NCBI RefSeq assembly: GCF_041886205.1
Contig: NZ_CP169029.1
Length of the DNA stretch: 64,000 nucleotides
DNA from: Escherichia coli
Lineage (GTDB): Bacteria > Pseudomonadota > Gammaproteobacteria > Enterobacterales > Enterobacteriaceae
Reading direction: 5' to 3' (one strand)
Each line of letters begins with the position of its first letter. Positions within the stretch are counted from its first letter, which is position 1. Under the pieces are notes generated by a model. It was not told where the DNA came from. It did no database searches and worked only from the letters and a program-made list of their open reading frames with translations. The position numbers and the translations under genes are program-made. Of this stretch, positions 7,451 through 63,799 are shown in pieces.

Positions 7451-7486
7451 AATAAAAAAGGCCCCCCGATTTGGGAGGCCTTATTG
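7451..7486 (-). terminator. pheA attenuator terminator hairpin (minus strand)
   Basis: On minus strand ggcctcccaaatcggggggcc followed by ttttttatt, between pheL stop and pheA start. Confidence 0.7.
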
Positions 7487-7528
7487 TTCGTCTTCGCATT
7501 CTGTTTCACACGACGAAACGCCTCCCAT

Positions 7529-7576
7529 TCAGGGGAAGGTAAAAAAGAATGCGAAGAAAAACGGTGTGTGTTTCAT
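7529..7576 (-). CDS. pheL: pheA leader peptide (15 aa, 7 Phe codons), translated here as MKHTPFFFAFFFTFP
   Basis: Manual translation of the minus strand; not in the ORF track because it is below the length cut-off. Confidence 0.85.
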   Translation of the reverse strand: MKHTPFFFAFFFTFP

Positions 7577-7631
7577 GTTTGTTTCCTTAAGTGACTTTAG
7601 TACAGTACCCGTACTGTTTTCACGCTGTCAA

Positions 7632-10872: not shown

Positions 10873-10934
10873 CCTAAAGAATCAAGACGATCCGGTACGC
10901 GTGATTTTCTTTTCACATTAATCTGGTCAATAAC

Positions 10935-10964
10935 CTTGAATAATTGAGGGATGACCTCATTTAA
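10935..10964 (+). promoter_or_regulatory. Sigma-32 heat-shock promoter of clpB
   Basis: cttgaa ... cctcatttaa, matching the CTTGAA-N13-15-CCCCATNT class, about 40-65 nt upstream of clpB. Confidence 0.6.
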
Positions 10965-11001
10965 TCTCCAGTAGCAACTTTGATCCGTTATGGGAGGAGT
11001 T

Positions 11002-13575
11002 ATGCGTCTGGATCGTCTTACTAATAAATTCCAGCTTGCTCTTGCCGATGCCCAATCACTTGCACTCGGGCACGACAACCAATTTATCGAACCACTTCAT
11101 TTAATGAGCGCCCTGCTGAATCAGGAAGGGGGTTCGGTTAGTCCTTTATTAACATCCGCTGGCATAAATGCTGGCCAGTTGCGCACAGATATCAATCAGG
11201 CATTAAATCGTTTACCGCAGGTTGAAGGTACTGGTGGTGATGTCCAGCCATCACAGGATCTGGTGCGCGTTCTTAATCTTTGCGACAAGCTGGCGCAAAA
11301 ACGTGGTGATAACTTTATCTCGTCAGAACTGTTCGTTCTGGCGGCACTTGAGTCTCGCGGCACGCTGGCCGACATCCTGAAAGCAGCAGGGGCGACCACC
11401 GCCAACATTACTCAAGCGATTGAACAAATGCGTGGAGGTGAAAGCGTGAACGATCAAGGTGCTGAAGACCAACGTCAGGCTTTGAAAAAATATACCATCG
11501 ACCTTACCGAACGAGCCGAACAGGGCAAACTCGATCCGGTGATTGGTCGTGATGAAGAAATTCGCCGTACCATTCAGGTGCTGCAACGTCGTACTAAAAA
11601 TAACCCGGTACTGATTGGTGAACCCGGCGTCGGTAAAACTGCCATCGTTGAAGGTCTGGCGCAGCGTATTATCAACGGCGAAGTGCCGGAAGGATTGAAA
11701 GGCCGCCGCGTGCTGGCGCTGGATATGGGCGCGCTGGTGGCTGGGGCGAAATATCGCGGTGAGTTTGAAGAACGTTTAAAAGGCGTGCTTAACGATCTTG
11801 CCAAACAGGAAGGCAACGTCATCCTGTTTATCGACGAATTACATACCATGGTCGGCGCGGGTAAAGCTGATGGCGCAATGGACGCCGGAAACATGCTGAA
11901 ACCGGCGCTGGCGCGTGGTGAATTGCACTGCGTAGGTGCCACGACGCTTGACGAATATCGCCAGTACATTGAAAAAGATGCTGCGCTGGAACGTCGTTTC
12001 CAGAAAGTGTTTGTTGCCGAGCCTTCTGTTGAAGATACCATTGCGATTCTGCGTGGCCTGAAAGAACGTTACGAATTGCACCACCATGTGCAAATTACTG
12101 ACCCGGCAATTGTTGCAGCGGCGACGTTGTCTCATCGCTACATTGCTGACCGTCAGCTGCCGGATAAAGCCATCGACCTGATCGATGAAGCAGCATCCAG
12201 CATTCGTATGCAGATTGACTCAAAACCAGAAGAACTCGACCGACTCGATCGTCGTATCATCCAGCTCAAACTGGAACAACAGGCGTTAATGAAAGAGTCT
12301 GATGAAGCCAGTAAAAAACGCCTGGATATGCTCAACGAAGAACTGAGCGACAAAGAACGTCAGTACTCCGAGTTAGAAGAAGAGTGGAAAGCAGAGAAAG
12401 CATCGCTTTCTGGTACGCAGACCATTAAAGCGGAACTGGAACAGGCGAAAATCGCTATTGAACAGGCTCGCCGTGTGGGGGACCTGGCGCGGATGTCTGA
12501 ACTGCAATACGGCAAAATCCCGGAACTGGAAAAGCAACTGGAAGCCGCAACGCAGCTCGAAGGCAAAACTATGCGTCTGTTGCGTAATAAAGTGACCGAT
12601 GCCGAAATTGCTGAAGTGCTGGCGCGTTGGACTGGGATTCCGGTTTCTCGCATGATGGAAAGCGAGCGCGAAAAACTGCTGCGTATGGAGCAAGAACTGC
12701 ACCATCGCGTTATTGGTCAGAACGAAGCGGTTGATGCGGTATCTAACGCTATTCGTCGTAGCCGTGCGGGGCTGGCGGATCCAAATCGCCCGATTGGTTC
12801 ATTCCTGTTCCTCGGCCCAACGGGTGTGGGGAAAACAGAGCTTTGTAAGGCGCTGGCGAACTTTATGTTTGATAGCGACGAGGCGATGGTCCGTATCGAT
12901 ATGTCCGAGTTTATGGAGAAACACTCGGTGTCTCGTTTGGTTGGTGCGCCTCCGGGATATGTCGGTTATGAAGAAGGTGGCTACCTGACCGAAGCGGTGC
13001 GTCGTCGTCCGTATTCCGTCATCCTGCTGGATGAAGTGGAAAAAGCGCATCCGGATGTCTTCAACATTCTGTTGCAGGTACTGGATGATGGGCGTCTGAC
13101 TGACGGGCAGGGGAGAACGGTCGACTTCCGTAATACGGTTGTCATTATGACCTCTAACCTCGGTTCCGATTTGATTCAGGAACGCTTCGGTGAACTGGAT
13201 TATGCGCACATGAAAGAGCTGGTGCTCGGTGTGGTAAGCCATAACTTCCGTCCGGAATTCATTAACCGTATCGATGAAGTGGTGGTTTTCCATCCGCTGG
13301 GTGAACAGCACATTGCGTCGATTGCGCAGATTCAGTTGAAACGTCTGTACAAACGTCTGGAAGAACGTGGTTATGAAATCCACATTTCTGACGAGGCGCT
13401 GAAACTGCTGAGCGAGAACGGTTACGATCCGGTCTATGGTGCACGTCCTCTGAAACGTGCAATTCAGCAGCAGATCGAAAACCCGCTGGCACAGCAAATA
13501 CTGTCTGGTGAATTGGTTCCGGGTAAAGTGATTCGCCTGGAAGTTAATGAAGACCGGATTGTCGCCGTCCAGTAA
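11002..13575 (+). CDS. clpB: Chaperone/disaggregase ClpB (two AAA+ modules)
   Basis: 857-aa product [18 protein letters not shown]...; two Walker A motifs ([16 protein letters not shown]); RBS gggaggag. ORF track starts 12 nt upstream at an in-frame ATG. Confidence 0.95.
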
Positions 13576-13584
13576 ATGATAAAA

Positions 13585-13608
13585 CGAGCCCTTCGGGGCT
13601 CGTTTTTG
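13585..13608 (+). terminator. clpB rho-independent terminator
   Basis: cgagcccttcggggctcg hairpin then ttttt. Confidence 0.7.
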
Positions 13609-13690
13609 TCTATAAGTTAGACGGGAAAGACTATATTTAAGATGTTTTGCCTGAAAAGTGAGCGAACGATAAAGTTTTTATATTTTTCGC

Positions 13691-13718
13691 TTGTCAGGCC
13701 GGAATAACTCCCTATAAT
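13691..13718 (+). promoter_or_regulatory. rrnG P1 promoter (-35 ttgtca, -10 tataat) with AT-rich UP-element-like sequence upstream
   Basis: Read directly: ttgtcaggccggaataactccctataat. Confidence 0.7.
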
Positions 13719-13808
13719 GCGCCACCACTGACACGGAACAACGGCAAACACGCCGCCGGGTCAGCGGGGTTCTCCTGAGAATTCCGGCAGAGAAAGCAAA
13801 AATAAATG

Positions 13809-13836
13809 CTTGACTCTGTAGCGGGAAAGCGTATTA
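13809..13836 (+). promoter_or_regulatory. rrnG P2 promoter (-35 ttgact, -10 tattat)
   Basis: Read directly: ttgactctgtagcgggaaagcgtattat. Confidence 0.7.
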
Positions 13837-13874
13837 TGCACACCCCGCGCCGCTGAGAAAAAGCGAAGCGGCAC

Positions 13875-13887
13875 TGCTCTTTAACAA
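13875..13887 (+). promoter_or_regulatory. rrn leader boxA antitermination element
   Basis: tgctctttaacaa in the leader between P2 and the 16S 5' end. Confidence 0.6.
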
Positions 13888-14018
13888 TTTATCAGACAAT
13901 CTGTGTGGGCACTCGAAGATACGGATTCTTAACGTCGCAAGACGAAAAATGAATACCAAGTCTCAAGAGTGAACACGTAATTCATTACGAAGTTTAATTC
14001 TTTGAGCATCAAACTTTT

Positions 14019-15560
<1,542 letters not shown>

Positions 15561-15645
15561 CCTTAAAGAAGCGTACTTTGCAGTGCTCACACAGATTGTC
15601 TGATAGAAAGTGAAAAGCAAGGCGTCTTGCGAAGCAGACTGATAC

Positions 15646-15721
15646 GTCCCCTTCGTCTAGAGGCCCAGGACACCGCCCTTTCACGGCGGTAACAGGGGTT
15701 CGAATCCCCTAGGGGACGCCA
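15646..15721 (+). tRNA. gltW: tRNA-Glu (anticodon UUC) in the 16S-23S spacer
   Basis: GTCCCCTTCGTCTAGAGGCCCAGGACACCGCCCTTTCACGGCGG...GGGGACGCCA; anticodon loop CTTTCAC; 76 nt including CCA. Confidence 0.95.
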
Positions 15722-15914
15722 CTTGCTGGTTTGTGAGTGAAAGTCACCTGCCTTAATATCTCAAAACTCATCTTCGGGTGATGTTTGAGATATTTGCTCT
15801 TTAAAAATCTGGATCAAGCTGAAAATTGAAACACTGAACAACGAAAGTTGTTCGTGAGTCTCTCAAATTTTCGCAACACGATGATGAATCGCAAGAAACA
15901 TCTTCGGGTTGTGA

Positions 15915-18818
<2,904 letters not shown>

Positions 18819-18911: not shown

Positions 18912-19031
18912 TGCCTGGCGGCCTTAGCGCGGTGGTCCCACCTGACCCCATGCCGAACTCAGAAGTGAAACGCCGTAGCGCCGATGGTAGTGTGGGGTCT
19001 CCCCATGCGAGAGTAGGGAACTGCCAGGCAT
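18912..19031 (+). rRNA. rrfG: 5S ribosomal RNA
   Basis: TGCCTGGCGGCC...GGGAACTGCCAGGCAT, 120 nt. Confidence 0.95.
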
Positions 19032-19042
19032 CAAATCATGCG

Positions 19043-19070
19043 AAAGGCCATCCGTCAGGATGGCCTTTTT
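19043..19070 (+). terminator. rrnG terminator hairpin
   Basis: aaaggccatccgtcaggatggccttttt immediately after 5S. Confidence 0.65.
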
Positions 19071-19090
19071 GCGCTGGCGGCAGAAACAAT

Positions 19091-19130
19091 GCCGGATGCG
19101 ACGCCAGCGCGTCTTATCCAGCCTGCGCGA
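19091..19130. repeat. REP-like (repetitive extragenic palindrome) element
   Basis: gccggatgcgacgccagcgcgtcttatccagcctgcg resembles the REP consensus. Confidence 0.5.
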
Positions 19131-19382
19131 GGACATAAATGATGTAATTTCAGCAAGTTATCTCGACATCCTCTACCTGCAAGTCAAAGTGCTTATTCAC
19201 GATCAATCCCAACCACATCGATTTTCTATATAACCAGAATCCCCCAAAATCATTCTCCTGCTAACGAATTCACATTTGTGGTTGTATAATTATATGCAAC
19301 AATTACATAACATTTAATTCACCAAAAAACAAACAAAGCAATCGACAGAAAACATCAGGTTTATGGCAGGAGTAATATTCAC

Positions 19383-30688: not shown

Positions 30689-30746
30689 AAATAATGTCGG
30701 GATTAAACCCGGCATTTAACTTGTCGACAAAGTGCGCTTTATTCAT

Positions 30747-30844
30747 GCCGGATGCGGCGTGAACGCCTTATCCGGCCTACAAGATCGTGCAAATTCAATA
30801 TATTGCATGAGCCACGTAGGCCTGATAAGCGTAGCGCATCAGGC
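30747..30844. repeat. BIME: two inverted REP elements
   Basis: gccggatgcggcgtgaacgccttatccggcctac (30747..30780) and inverted copy gtaggcctgataagcgtagcgcatcaggc (30816..30844). Confidence 0.65.
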
Positions 30845-30896
30845 AGTTTTGCGTTTGCCAGCACTTTTAATACCAGGCTTAAACCCGGCATTGAGA

Positions 30897-36373: not shown

Positions 36374-37329
36374 TGAAGCAACTTTGGTTTGCCATGTCAT
36401 TAGTGACAGGTAGCCTGTTATTCTCTGCTAACGCCTCGGCCACTCCCGCGTCCGGGGCGTTATTACAGCAGATGAACCTGGCCAGTCAGTCACTGAATTA
36501 CGAGCTGTCATTCATCAGCATCAATAAACAGGGTGTTGAGTCTCTGCGTTATCGACATGCACGCCTCGATAACCGTCCTCTTGCACAATTGTTGCAAATG
36601 GATGGCCCGCGCCGGGAAGTGGTACAGCGCGGCAATGAAATCAGCTATTTTGAACCGGGACTTGAACCGTTCACGCTTAATGGCGATTACATTGTTGATT
36701 CTCTGCCATCGCTCATCTATACCGATTTCAAACGCCTTTCTCCTTACTACGACTTCATCTCCGTCGGGCGCACGCGTATTGCTGATCGTCTTTGCGAAGT
36801 CATTCGCGTGGTTGCCCGAGATGGTACACGCTACAGCTACATCGTGTGGATGGACACTGAATCGAAATTACCGATGAGGGTTGATCTCCTTGATCGCGAT
36901 GGTGAAACGCTGGAACAATTTCGCGTGATTGCTTTTAACGTCAATCAGGATATCAGCAGCAGTATGCAGACGTTGGCGAAGGCAAATTTGCCGCCGTTGC
37001 TTTCTGTTCCTGTAGGTGAAAAAGCTAAATTCAGCTGGACGCCAACCTGGTTGCCACAGGGTTTTAGCGAAGTTTCCAGTAGTCGACGTCCGCTACCGAC
37101 GATGGACAACATGCCTATCGAATCACGTCTCTATTCCGACGGATTATTCAGCTTCTCGGTAAACGTTAACCGCGCTACGCCATCGAGCACCGATCAGATG
37201 TTGCGCACCGGACGCAGAACCGTCAGTACAAGCGTACGTGATAACGCCGAAATCACCATTGTCGGTGAACTGCCGCCGCAAACGGCGAAACGCATTGCCG
37301 AGAATATTAAGTTCGGGGCAGCGCAATGA
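36373..37329 (+). CDS. rseB: Sigma-E regulatory protein RseB (periplasmic)
   Basis: 318-aa ORF with signal peptide; coupled to rseA (1-nt overlap). Confidence 0.93.
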   Translation: MKQLWFAMSLVTGSLLFSANASATPASGALLQQMNLASQSLNYELSFISINKQGVESLRYRHARLDNRPLAQLLQMDGPRREVVQRGNEISYFEPGLEPFTLNGDYIVDSLPSLIYTDFKRLSPYYDFISVGRTRIADRLCEVIRVVARDGTRYSYIVWMDTESKLPMRVDLLDRDGETLEQFRVIAFNVNQDISSSMQTLAKANLPPLLSVPVGEKAKFSWTPTWLPQGFSEVSSSRRPLPTMDNMPIESRLYSDGLFSFSVNVNRATPSSTDQMLRTGRRTVSTSVRDNAEITIVGELPPQTAKRIAENIKFGAAQ

Positions 37330-37805
37330 TCAAAGAGTGGGCTACCGTCGTCTCCTGGCAAAACGGGCAGGCGCTGGTCAGTTGTGATGTTAAAGCCTCA
37401 TGCAGCAGCTGCGCTTCACGCGCCGGTTGCGGTAGCCGCGTGTTGAATAAACTTGGCCCGCAAACCACGCATACCATTGTCGTACCCTGTGATGAGCCGT
37501 TAGTGCCGGGGCAAAAAGTGGAATTGGGGATCGCCGAAGGCAGCCTGCTTAGCTCCGCATTACTGGTTTATATGTCGCCGCTGGTGGGATTATTCCTCAT
37601 CGCTTCGCTATTTCAGCTACTCTTTGCTTCTGACGTCGCAGCATTATGTGGTGCGGTCCTCGGCGGTATTGGCGGGTTCCTGATTGCGCGTGGCTACTCG
37701 CGTAAGTTTGCTGCCCGGGCAGAATGGCAACCGATCATCTTAAGCGTGGCATTGCCGCCTGGCCTTGTGCGATTTGAAACATCTTCGGAAGACGCGAGCC
37801 AGTGA
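37326..37805 (+). CDS. rseC: Sigma-E regulatory protein RseC (SoxR-reducing system family)
   Basis: 159-aa ORF with Cys-rich N-terminus and two TM segments; 4-nt overlap with rseB. Confidence 0.9.
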   Translation: MIKEWATVVSWQNGQALVSCDVKASCSSCASRAGCGSRVLNKLGPQTTHTIVVPCDEPLVPGQKVELGIAEGSLLSSALLVYMSPLVGLFLIASLFQLLFASDVAALCGAVLGGIGGFLIARGYSRKFAARAEWQPIILSVALPPGLVRFETSSEDASQ

Positions 37806-38002
37806 TTTCACTGGCTTTGTTGCATTTTGCATAACAAATGCGAGGACGTTTCCAGATACCACAATCCATACGGTATGAACATTTCCTCGCCTCAATGTTG
37901 TAGTGTAGAATGCGGCGTTTCTATTAATACAGACGTTAAGCTCAGAACAGCGACTTCTAAAAGCCTGGTTAACCGGGCATTAAGGCACAATAATCATACT
38001 TT

Positions 38003-39802
<1,800 letters not shown>

Positions 39803-40838: not shown

Positions 40839-40937
40839 TTATTTATGAGATAAATCTCCCGTGGCTAACGACATCCCCCGTCGTTGTGTATAGAATATTC
40901 CCCCGAAGTTTAAGGTTGGCACCTCCAGGTTGCCACG

Positions 40938-41031
40938 GCACACGAAACAGCGTTGGTCCCCATATACCGCTAAACTGAAACTGCAGCGAAGCAGTTAGCA
41001 GAGCCATGTATATCAGGTCTGTTTCGTGTGC
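40938..41031 (+). promoter_or_regulatory. rnc leader: 13-bp perfect inverted repeat able to form a long-range stem, consistent with the RNase III autoregulatory cleavage site
   Basis: gcacacgaaacag (40938..40950) and ctgtttcgtgtgc (41019..41031) read directly. Confidence 0.5.
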
Positions 41032-41034
41032 TGA

Positions 41035-42647
<1,613 letters not shown>

Positions 42648-63031: not shown

Positions 63032-63046
63032 GGTAATGACTCCAAC

Positions 63047-63550
63047 TTATTGATAGTGTTTTATGTTCAGATAATGCCCGATAACTTTGTCATGCAGCTC
63101 CACCGATTTTGAGAACGACAGTGACTTCCTGCCCAGCCTTGCCAGATGCTGCCTCAGATTCAGGTTATGCCGCTCAATGCGCTGCGTATATCGCTTGCTG
63201 ATAACGTGCAGTTCTCCCTTCAGGCGTGATTCATAAAGCGGCCAGCCATCCGTCATCCATACCACGACCTCAAAGGCCGACAGCAGGCCCAGAAGACGCT
63301 CCAGCGTCGCCATAGTGCGTTCACCGAATACGTGCGCAACAACCGTCTTCCGGAGCCTGTCATACGCGTAAAACAGCCAGCGCTGGCGCGATTTAGCCCC
63401 GACATAGCCCCACTGTTCGTCCATTTCCGCGCAGACGATGACGTCACTGCCCGGCTGTATGCGCGAGGTTACCGACTGCGGCCTGAGTTTTTTAAGTGAC
63501 GTAAAATCGTGTTGAGGCCAACGCCCATAATGCGGGCAGTTGCCCGGCAT
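63047..63550 (-). CDS. insB: IS1 InsB reading frame (expressed as the InsAB' transposase by -1 frameshift at the A6C slippery site)
   Basis: 167-aa ORF recognised as InsB; A-run slippery motif lies in the insA/insB overlap (plus-strand gagttttttaag). Confidence 0.9.
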
Positions 63551-63744
63551 CCAACGCCATTCATGGCCATATCAATGATTTTCTGGTGCGTACCGGGTTG
63601 AGAAGCGGTGTAAGTGAACTGCAGTTGCCATGTTTTACGGCAGTGAGAGCAGAGATAGCGCTGATGTCCGGCGGTGCTTTTGCCGTTACGTACCACCCCG
63701 TCAGTAGCTGAACAGGAGGGACAGCTGATAGAAACAGAAGCCAC
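63469..63744 (-). CDS. insA: IS1 protein InsA
   Basis: 91-aa [33 protein letters not shown]... recognised as InsA. Confidence 0.93.
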
Positions 63745-63799
63745 TGGAGCACCTCAAAAACACCATCATACACTAAATCAGTAAGTTGGCAGCATCACC

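What the first reader, a model, noticed from the sequence alone, without database searches (positions are those of the whole stretch)
13660..14018. rrnG tandem P1/P2 promoters and boxA antiterminator
Two consensus-like sigma-70 promoters about 118 bp apart (ttgtca/tataat and ttgact/tattat), an AT-rich stretch upstream of P1 typical of an UP element, and the boxA motif tgctctttaacaa in the leader are all readable. The 16S, 23S and 5S lengths (1542, 2904, 120 nt) and the single tRNA-Glu spacer identify the operon type. There are no intervening sequences or unusual insertions in the rRNA genes.
Basis: partly seen in the sequence, partly recalled or inferred. Interest (0 to 1): 0.15.

Follow-up and report, generated by a model that had tools for sequence, protein, structure and literature searches.

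The report
E. coli rrnG promoters and leader

Summary
Window 13660-14018 is the promoter and leader of the rRNA operon between clpB and kgtP, the rrnG locus of E. coli. P1 is TTGTCA/16 bp/TATAAT. P2 is TTGACT/16 bp/TATTAT. They lie 119 bp apart and are the only sites in the 64 kb window matching at least 10 of 12 sigma-70 consensus positions. An exact boxA lies at 13875-13887, preceded by a boxB-like hairpin. It is followed by a leader strand that pairs over 40 bp with the sequence just after 16S, the RNase III stem. 16S is 1542 nt, 23S is 2904 nt and 5S is 120 nt. There is one tRNA-Glu spacer gene and no insertion in 16S or 23S relative to K-12. The region occurs in 5,425 of 5,426 complete E. 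coli genomes, and the window is collinear with K-12 MG1655 at about 98-99% identity.

Two small departures from K-12 rrnG exist. The stretch between P1 and P2 resembles K-12 rrnA/B/C. The 16S-23S spacer is the 354-nt rrnC/rrnE type, not the 431-nt K-12 rrnG type. This fits known exchange between rrn operons. Other E. coli genomes carry the same arrangement. The feature is already known and of low interest.

The parts
13584..13607 (+). clpB intrinsic terminator hairpin (CGAGCCC-TTCG-GGGCTCG followed by TTTTT). It insulates the rrn promoters from clpB read-through.
   Evidence: Readable. Folds at -20.3 kcal/mol. clpB stops at 13575. The pattern scanner did not list it.
13608..13666 (+). Upstream activating region of P1, with FIS-consensus-like 15-mers centred near -112 and -91.
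   Evidence: A crude FIS-motif scan gave GTCTATAAGTTAGAC at 13608-13622 and GACTATATTTAAGAT at 13629-13643. This is prediction only. Three or more FIS sites are reported for rrnG in PMC4696680. The sequence is specific to rrnG among the K-12 operons.
13667..13689 (+). UP element of P1 (A/T-rich, about -60 to -38).
   Evidence: 78% A+T against 48.7% for the window. Identical to K-12 rrnG.
13691..13718 (+). rrnG P1 core promoter: TTGTCA, 16-bp spacer, TATAAT.
   Evidence: Identical to K-12 rrnG/A/B/C P1.
13719..13727 (+). G+C-rich discriminator GCGCCACC and the expected P1 start (A at 13727).
   Evidence: The sequence is. The start site is placed by homology to rrnB P1 from established knowledge. 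It was not measured here.
13810..13837 (+). rrnG P2 core promoter: TTGACT, 16-bp spacer, TATTAT.
   Evidence: One spacer difference from K-12 rrnG, at 13828.
13849..13872 (+). boxB-like hairpin (GCCGCU...AGCGGC) of the leader nut-like site.
   Evidence: The fold gives a 6-bp G+C-rich stem. It is not distinguishable from shuffles by energy alone (z = -0.98). The position immediately 5' of boxA agrees with the rrnGnut layout in PMC6614801.
13875..13887 (+). Leader boxA, TGCTCTTTAACAA (NusB/NusE binding site).
   Evidence: Exact match, about 0.08 expected by chance. Invariant in all seven K-12 operons.
13888..13930 (+). 5' strand of the 16S RNase III processing stem. It includes the boxA-boxC linker and boxC (UGUGUGGGCACUCG region).
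   Evidence: Cofolding gave 40 intermolecular pairs with 15566-15607 at -81.1 kcal/mol. Shuffled partners gave -54.6 +/- 3.1 kcal/mol.
14019..15560 (+). 16S rRNA (1542 nt).
   Evidence: Rfam RF00177, 1575.6 bits. No gaps against any K-12 16S.
15566..15607 (+). 3' strand of the 16S RNase III processing stem.
15646..15721 (+). tRNA-Glu(UUC), the counterpart of gltW.
   Evidence: ARAGORN and Rfam.
15795..15807 (+). Spacer boxA-like element TGCTCTTTAAAAA, upstream of 23S.
   Evidence: One mismatch to boxA. It lies at the start of the Rfam StyR-44 match at 15799-15907.
15915..18818 (+). 23S rRNA (2904 nt), with no intervening sequence.
   Evidence: Rfam RF02541, 2874 bits. No gaps against the six 2904-nt K-12 23S copies; 3 gap columns against the 2905-nt rrlA.
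18912..19031 (+). 5S rRNA (120 nt).
   Evidence: Aligned to K-12 rrfG with one substitution, T at 18924 where K-12 has G. The Rfam match is 18914-19029.
19040..19072 (+). Operon intrinsic terminator (GCGAAAGGCCATCC-GTCA-GGATGGCCTTTTTGC).
   Evidence: Sequence. Folds at -23.3 kcal/mol.

Best explanation
Window 13660-14018 is the control region of the E. coli rrnG ribosomal RNA operon.

Shown here:
- The sequence, position and gene context are those of rrnG.
- Every named element is identical or nearly identical to the K-12 counterpart.

Inferred from established work on rrnB and rrnG:
- P1 is the strong, growth-rate-regulated promoter. The alpha-subunit C-terminal domains bind its A/T-rich UP element, and FIS bound upstream activates it further.
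- The 16-bp spacer and the G+C-rich discriminator GCGCCACC make the P1 open complex short-lived. Its output therefore follows the concentration of the initiating NTP and falls with ppGpp/DksA.
- P2, 119 bp downstream, gives basal transcription at slow growth and in stationary phase.
- Both transcripts carry the boxB-boxA-boxC nut-like site. NusB/NusE bind boxA. Together with NusA, NusG, S4 and SuhB they convert RNA polymerase into the rrn antitermination complex. That complex resists Rho, elongates fast and helps rRNA folding.
- The leader strand 13888-13930 later pairs with 15566-15607 to form the stem that RNase III cuts to release pre-16S.
For: - Sequence elements are as described.
- The rRNA and tRNA genes have the expected lengths and no insertions.
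- The flanking genes are clpB and kgtP, as in K-12 rrnG.
- The whole window is collinear with K-12.
- The 471-bp promoter region is found in 5,425 of 5,426 complete E. coli genomes. It is 100% identical in two of them, always between clpB and 16S.
- The full 6.1-kb operon with both flanks matches in one piece at up to 99.9%.
- Upstream of -35 the window matches only rrnG among the seven K-12 operons.
- The leader/spacer duplex has 40 bp and -81.1 kcal/mol, against -54.6 +/- 3.1 for shuffled partners.
- Literature: tandem P1/P2 about 120 bp apart, UP element, discriminator and FIS sites on rrnG (PMC4696680). The rrnG leader boxB-boxA-boxC RNA assembles NusA/B/E/G, S4 and SuhB on RNA polymerase, and boxC is part of the RNase III duplex (PMC6614801).
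Against: - Nothing contradicts it.
- No transcription start, FIS binding or Nus-factor binding was measured for this sequence. All function is carried over from K-12.
- The boxB-like hairpin is not energetically exceptional on its own (z = -0.98).
- The FIS sites are crude motif matches.
- The segment between P1 and P2 and the 16S-23S spacer are not the K-12 rrnG versions. They are K-12 rrnA/B/C-like and rrnC/E-like, and no functional hexamer, discriminator or box is changed.
Confidence: 0.97

Rival explanations
1. The operon is a different rrn operon (for example rrnC or rrnE) that was moved or mis-assembled next to clpB, rather than rrnG.
For: From the P1 -35 hexamer onward the window is closer to K-12 rrnA/B/C (2-3 differences) than to K-12 rrnG (11 differences). 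The 354-nt spacer is the K-12 rrnC/rrnE type. The 16S is 1 substitution from rrsH but 17 from rrsG.
Against: Both unique flanks are those of rrnG. They include the rrnG-specific UP element and upstream region, and kgtP downstream. There are no distal tRNA-Asp or tRNA-Trp genes as in rrnC. Several independent complete E. coli genomes have the same arrangement in one collinear piece at 99.4-99.9% identity. Mosaic interiors are what gene conversion among rrn copies would produce. That process is known from the literature as I recall it; I did not read those papers here.
Confidence: 0.02
2. The promoter-like hexamers and boxA are chance consensus matches with no function.
For: Random shuffles of the window give about 4 sites per strand matching at least 10 of 12 positions. 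A close pair arose in 4 of 100 shuffles. In the 1-kb scan, 3 sites were found against 1.0 +/- 1.0 expected.
Against: The sites are base-for-base the experimentally characterised K-12 promoters. They are conserved in 5,425 of 5,426 genomes. They sit directly upstream of a complete rRNA operon. boxA is invariant across all seven paralogous leaders, and about 0.08 matches are expected by chance.
Confidence: 0.01

Closest known systems
E. coli K-12 MG1655 rrnG promoter/leader (upstream of rrsG b2591, downstream of clpB b2592)
   Same: Same locus, with clpB upstream and kgtP downstream. The UP element and P1 core are identical. The P2 hexamers, boxB, boxA, boxC and the rest of the leader down to 16S are identical. 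Identity is 97.2% over 471 aligned columns.
   Different: There are 10 differences clustered at 13763-13803, between P1 and P2, where the window matches K-12 rrnA/B/C. One difference lies in the P2 spacer (13828) and one upstream (13625). The 16S-23S spacer is 354 nt rather than 431 nt.
E. coli rrnB P1/P2, the reference system for rRNA promoter regulation (UP element, FIS, discriminator, iNTP/ppGpp/DksA)
   Same: From the P1 -35 hexamer to 16S there are only 3 differences from K-12 rrnB. The hexamers, 16-bp spacers, discriminator and boxA are the same.
   Different: The UP element and the FIS region upstream of -35 are unrelated in sequence and are operon-specific.
rrnGnut boxB-boxA-boxC RNA used to reconstitute the rrn antitermination complex (PMC6614801)
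   Same: The leader from the P2 -10 hexamer to the start of 16S is identical to K-12 rrnG. It therefore carries the same boxB, boxA, linker and boxC.
   Different: None in sequence. Binding was not tested here.
Phage lambda nut sites (N-dependent antitermination)
   Same: A boxA linear element and a boxB hairpin recruit NusB/E and NusA to RNA polymerase (PMC6614801).
   Different: The order of the elements is reversed (boxB before boxA). There is an extra boxC. No N protein is involved; SuhB and S4 take part instead.

Membership tests
E. coli rrn P1 promoters | -35 TTGTCA, 16-bp spacer, -10 TATAAT. | tested here: met
   13691-13718, 11 of 12 consensus positions. Identical to K-12 rrnG/A/B/C.
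E. coli rrn P1 promoters | G+C-rich discriminator (GCGCCNCC) between -10 and the start site. | tested here: met
   GCGCCACC at 13719-13726. Aligned with all seven K-12 P1 promoters.
E. coli rrn P1 promoters | A/T-rich UP element at about -60 to -40. | tested here: met
   13667-13689 is 78% A+T and identical to K-12 rrnG. Binding by the alpha C-terminal domain was not tested.
E. coli rrn P1 promoters | FIS binding sites upstream of the UP element. | tested here: inconclusive
   There are motif-level matches centred at about -91, -112 and -153. Binding is reported for K-12 rrnG (PMC4696680). The window differs from K-12 at one base here, 13625.
E. coli rrn P1 promoters | Regulation by iNTP, ppGpp/DksA and growth rate. 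| not testable with these tools
   Carried over from the literature.
E. coli rrn P2 promoters | A second sigma-70 promoter about 120 bp downstream of P1 (TTGACT ... TATTAT or TAATAT). | tested here: met
   13810-13837, 10 of 12 positions, 119 bp from P1. 'Approximately 120 bp' in PMC4696680.
rrn antitermination (nut-like) leader | boxA consensus TGCTCTTTAACAA. | tested here: met
   Exact at 13875-13887.
rrn antitermination (nut-like) leader | boxB-like hairpin 5' of boxA, and boxC 3' of it. | tested here: met
   The hairpin at 13849-13872 is predicted. The sequence through boxC is identical to K-12 rrnG. The order of elements is as in PMC6614801.
rrn antitermination (nut-like) leader | Recruitment of NusB/E, NusA, NusG, S4 and SuhB, and resistance to Rho. 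| not testable with these tools
   Shown for the identical K-12 rrnG RNA in PMC6614801.
rrnG locus (as opposed to the other six operons) | Lies between clpB and kgtP, with the operon-specific sequence upstream of -35. | tested here: met
rrnG locus (as opposed to the other six operons) | Single tRNA-Glu in the spacer and no distal tRNA. | tested here: met
   One tRNA in the whole 64 kb window.
rrnG locus (as opposed to the other six operons) | K-12-type long (431-nt) 16S-23S spacer. | tested here: not met
   The spacer is 354 nt, the rrnC/rrnE type. This is a strain-variable trait, not a defining trait of the locus. Strain MB19 has the long form with an identical promoter region. Other genomes match the short form collinearly.
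16S RNase III processing stem | Long duplex between the leader and the sequence 3' of 16S. | tested here: met
   40 pairs between 13888-13930 and 15566-15607, at -81.1 kcal/mol against -54.6 +/- 3.1 for shuffled partners. Cleavage was not tested.

The most novel reading that the evidence does not exclude
The most novel reading the evidence allows is modest. In this strain the rrnG locus has kept its own UP/FIS region. It has acquired, by gene conversion from other rrn copies, the segment between P1 and P2 (rrnA/B/C-like) and the short rrnC/E-type spacer. rrnG output or processing might then differ slightly from K-12.
Probability: 0.1. Interest if true: 0.1.

Novelty: already known. Interest (0 to 1): 0.04.

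Why it matters
It matters only as correct annotation. It fixes the window as E. coli chromosome around rrnG and gives exact coordinates for a very well studied regulatory region. The mosaic interior is one more example of exchange between rRNA operon copies. That is relevant to typing by the 16S-23S spacer but is not new biology.

Tried and rejected
- A permissive Rfam scan of 13500-14060 gave only a sub-threshold match to Ysr197 (78.5 bits against a gathering score of 167) at 13646-13897. I read this as a Yersinia 'sRNA' family that appears to be built on an rrn leader. I did not check that family further. It does not indicate a separate gene here.
- The terminator scanner found nothing in 13300-14300. 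The clpB terminator is nevertheless plainly readable and folds at -20.3 kcal/mol.
- A weak promoter-like site on the minus strand at 13657-13630 (9 of 12 positions) is at chance level, and I did not pursue it.
- I tried to read Hirvonen et al. 2001 (PMC100122) for the rrnG FIS-site positions, but the paper is not held. The FIS sites therefore remain motif-level predictions.
- I considered intervening sequences in 23S or 16S and excluded them.

Full report
**1. What is in the sequence**

Reading 13300-14300 gives the following order.

| Coordinates | Element |
|---|---|
| to 13575 | end of an 861-codon ORF, the clpB counterpart |
| about 13584-13607 | G+C-rich hairpin followed by a T run; folds at -20.3 kcal/mol |
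| about 13608-13689 | A/T-rich region |
| 13691-13696 | TTGTCA (P1 -35) |
| 13697-13712 | 16-bp spacer |
| 13713-13718 | TATAAT (P1 -10) |
| 13719-13726 | GCGCCACC (discriminator) |
| 13810-13815 | TTGACT (P2 -35), 119 bp after the P1 -35 hexamer |
| 13816-13831 | 16-bp spacer |
| 13832-13837 | TATTAT (P2 -10) |
| 13849-13872 | GCCGCU...AGCGGC hairpin |
| 13875-13887 | TGCTCTTTAACAA (boxA) |
| 14019 | AAATTGAAGAGTTTGATC, the 5' end of 16S |

The promoter scanner lists both promoters, at 11 of 12 and 10 of 12 consensus positions. In my own scan of the whole window they are the only sites on either strand that match at least 10 of 12 positions. Shuffled sequence gives about 4 such sites per strand, and a same-strand pair within 150 bp arose in 4 of 100 shuffles. 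Motif statistics alone would therefore be only suggestive.

boxA is exact. About 0.08 matches at up to one mismatch are expected by chance. The only other match, with one mismatch, is at 15795-15807 in the 16S-23S spacer, where a second boxA is expected.

**2. The genes downstream**

- Rfam places 16S at 14019-15560 (1542 nt) and 23S at 15915-18818 (2904 nt).
- Rfam places 5S at 18914-19029. Alignment to K-12 rrfG gives the full 120 nt at 18912-19031, with one substitution.
- ARAGORN finds one tRNA in the whole window, tRNA-Glu(UUC) at 15646-15721.
- 16S aligns to all seven K-12 copies without a gap column. 23S does so against the six 2904-nt copies and shows 3 gap columns against the 2905-nt rrlA. 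There are no intervening sequences.
- A hairpin-plus-T-run terminator follows 5S at about 19040-19072.

**3. Which operon it is**

- The flanks are clpB upstream and a 432-codon ORF, kgtP, downstream. This is the arrangement of rrnG in K-12 MG1655.
- The window is collinear with K-12 2,745,174 to 2,681,780 on the reverse strand, at about 98-99% identity.
- I aligned the 460 bases before 16S with all seven K-12 operons. The sequence upstream of the P1 -35 hexamer is operon-specific. The window matches only rrnG there, with one difference at 13625.
- The 471-bp region occurs in 5,425 of 5,426 complete E. coli genomes, at a median of seven places per genome. The listed best matches all lie between clpB and a 16S gene. 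Two genomes are 100% identical.

**4. Small departures from K-12 rrnG**

- From the P1 -35 hexamer onward, the window differs from K-12 rrnG at 11 positions. Ten cluster at 13763-13803, between P1 and P2, and one is in the P2 spacer at 13828. The window differs from K-12 rrnA/B/C at only 2-3 positions over the same stretch.
- The 16S-23S spacer is 354 nt. It has 2-3 substitutions and no gaps relative to K-12 rrnE/rrnC. K-12 rrnG has a 431-nt spacer.
- The 16S is one substitution from rrsH and 17 from rrsG.
- None of the differences touches a hexamer, the discriminator, boxB, boxA, boxC or the processing stem.
- Strain MB19 has a promoter region identical to the window but carries the long spacer, with 171 nt between 16S and tRNA-Glu.
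- Other complete genomes, such as NZ_AP045833.1 at 99.9% in one piece, match the whole 6.1 kb including both flanks.
- The pattern fits sequence exchange between rrn copies. That phenomenon is known from the literature as I recall it; I did not read those papers here.

**5. How it works**

Shown here:
- The sequence is identical to the characterised elements.
- The leader strand 13888-13930 forms 40 base pairs with 15566-15607, just after 16S. The energy is -81.1 kcal/mol, against -54.6 +/- 3.1 for shuffled partners. This is the stem that RNase III cuts.

Taken from the literature:
- Each E. coli rrn operon has tandem P1 and P2 about 120 bp apart.
- P1 dominates in fast growth and depends on an A/T-rich UP element, a G+C-rich discriminator, FIS, ppGpp and the initiating NTP. 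P2 gives basal expression.
- FIS binds the rrnG promoter fragment at three or more sites (PMC4696680).
- The rrnG leader boxB-boxA-boxC RNA assembles NusA, NusB/E, NusG, S4 and SuhB on RNA polymerase into a complex that resists Rho-dependent and intrinsic termination. boxC is part of the RNase III duplex (PMC6614801).

Inferred:
- The start sites are A at 13727 for P1 and about 13845 for P2.
- The FIS sites sit near -91, -112 and -153. These are crude motif matches.

**6. Comparison and verdict**

The region is a member of the E. coli rrn P1/P2 and leader family, and specifically of the rrnG locus. Every sequence-level defining feature was tested and met. The one K-12-specific trait that is not met, the long spacer, varies between strains. 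The feature is already known in full, and interest is very low. Two corrections are minor: the promoters are 119 bp apart rather than 118, and the tRNA-Glu spacer alone does not single out rrnG.

Noticed in passing
window 63032-63799: A 768-bp insertion is absent from K-12. Its ends read GGTAATGACTCCAACTTATTGATAG... and ...CAGTAAGTTGGCAGCATCACC, which I recognise from memory as IS1 terminal repeats. It is flanked by an 8-9-bp direct repeat (C)GAAAAATC. It lies inside the counterpart of yphG (K-12 position about 2,681,972-2,681,982).
   Followed up: partly
window 15561-15914: The 16S-23S spacer at the rrnG locus is the short 354-nt rrnC/rrnE type, with 85 nt between 16S and tRNA-Glu. K-12 rrnG has a 431-nt spacer with 171 nt between 16S and tRNA-Glu. 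Strain MB19, whose promoter region is identical, has the long form.
   Followed up: yes
window 13763-13803: A patch of 10 differences from K-12 rrnG lies between P1 and P2. There the window matches K-12 rrnA/B/C, which looks like a short conversion tract.
   Followed up: yes
window 19117-19242: The stretch between the rrn terminator and kgtP does not align to K-12 by megablast. It is about 125 bp here and about 95 bp in K-12, in the region where K-12 annotates the small protein YfiS. It includes a GCCGGATGCGACGC...GCGTCTTATCC motif that looks REP-like to me.
   Followed up: no
window 13646-13897: There is a sub-threshold Rfam match to Ysr197 (Yersinia sRNA 197; 78.5 bits against a gathering score of 167). 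It covers the rrn promoters and leader as far as boxA. That Rfam family may therefore be an rrn leader fragment.
   Followed up: no
window 30728-30856: This stretch also matches K-12 2,684,233-2,684,105, near glyA, at 87.6%. It overlaps the Rfam ES036 (CssrF) match at 30781-30823, so it is a dispersed repeat.
   Followed up: no
window 18924: The 5S rRNA has T where K-12 rrfG has G, at position 13 of the RNA. This is the only difference in the 120 nt.
   Followed up: partly
window 7452-7577, 10883-11021, 37290-38121, 40905-41119, 44532-44596, 53797-53944: Other Rfam matches sit in their expected K-12 positions: the Phe leader, RyfD, AsrC (antisense to rseC), rncO, OhsC and GlmY.
   Followed up: no
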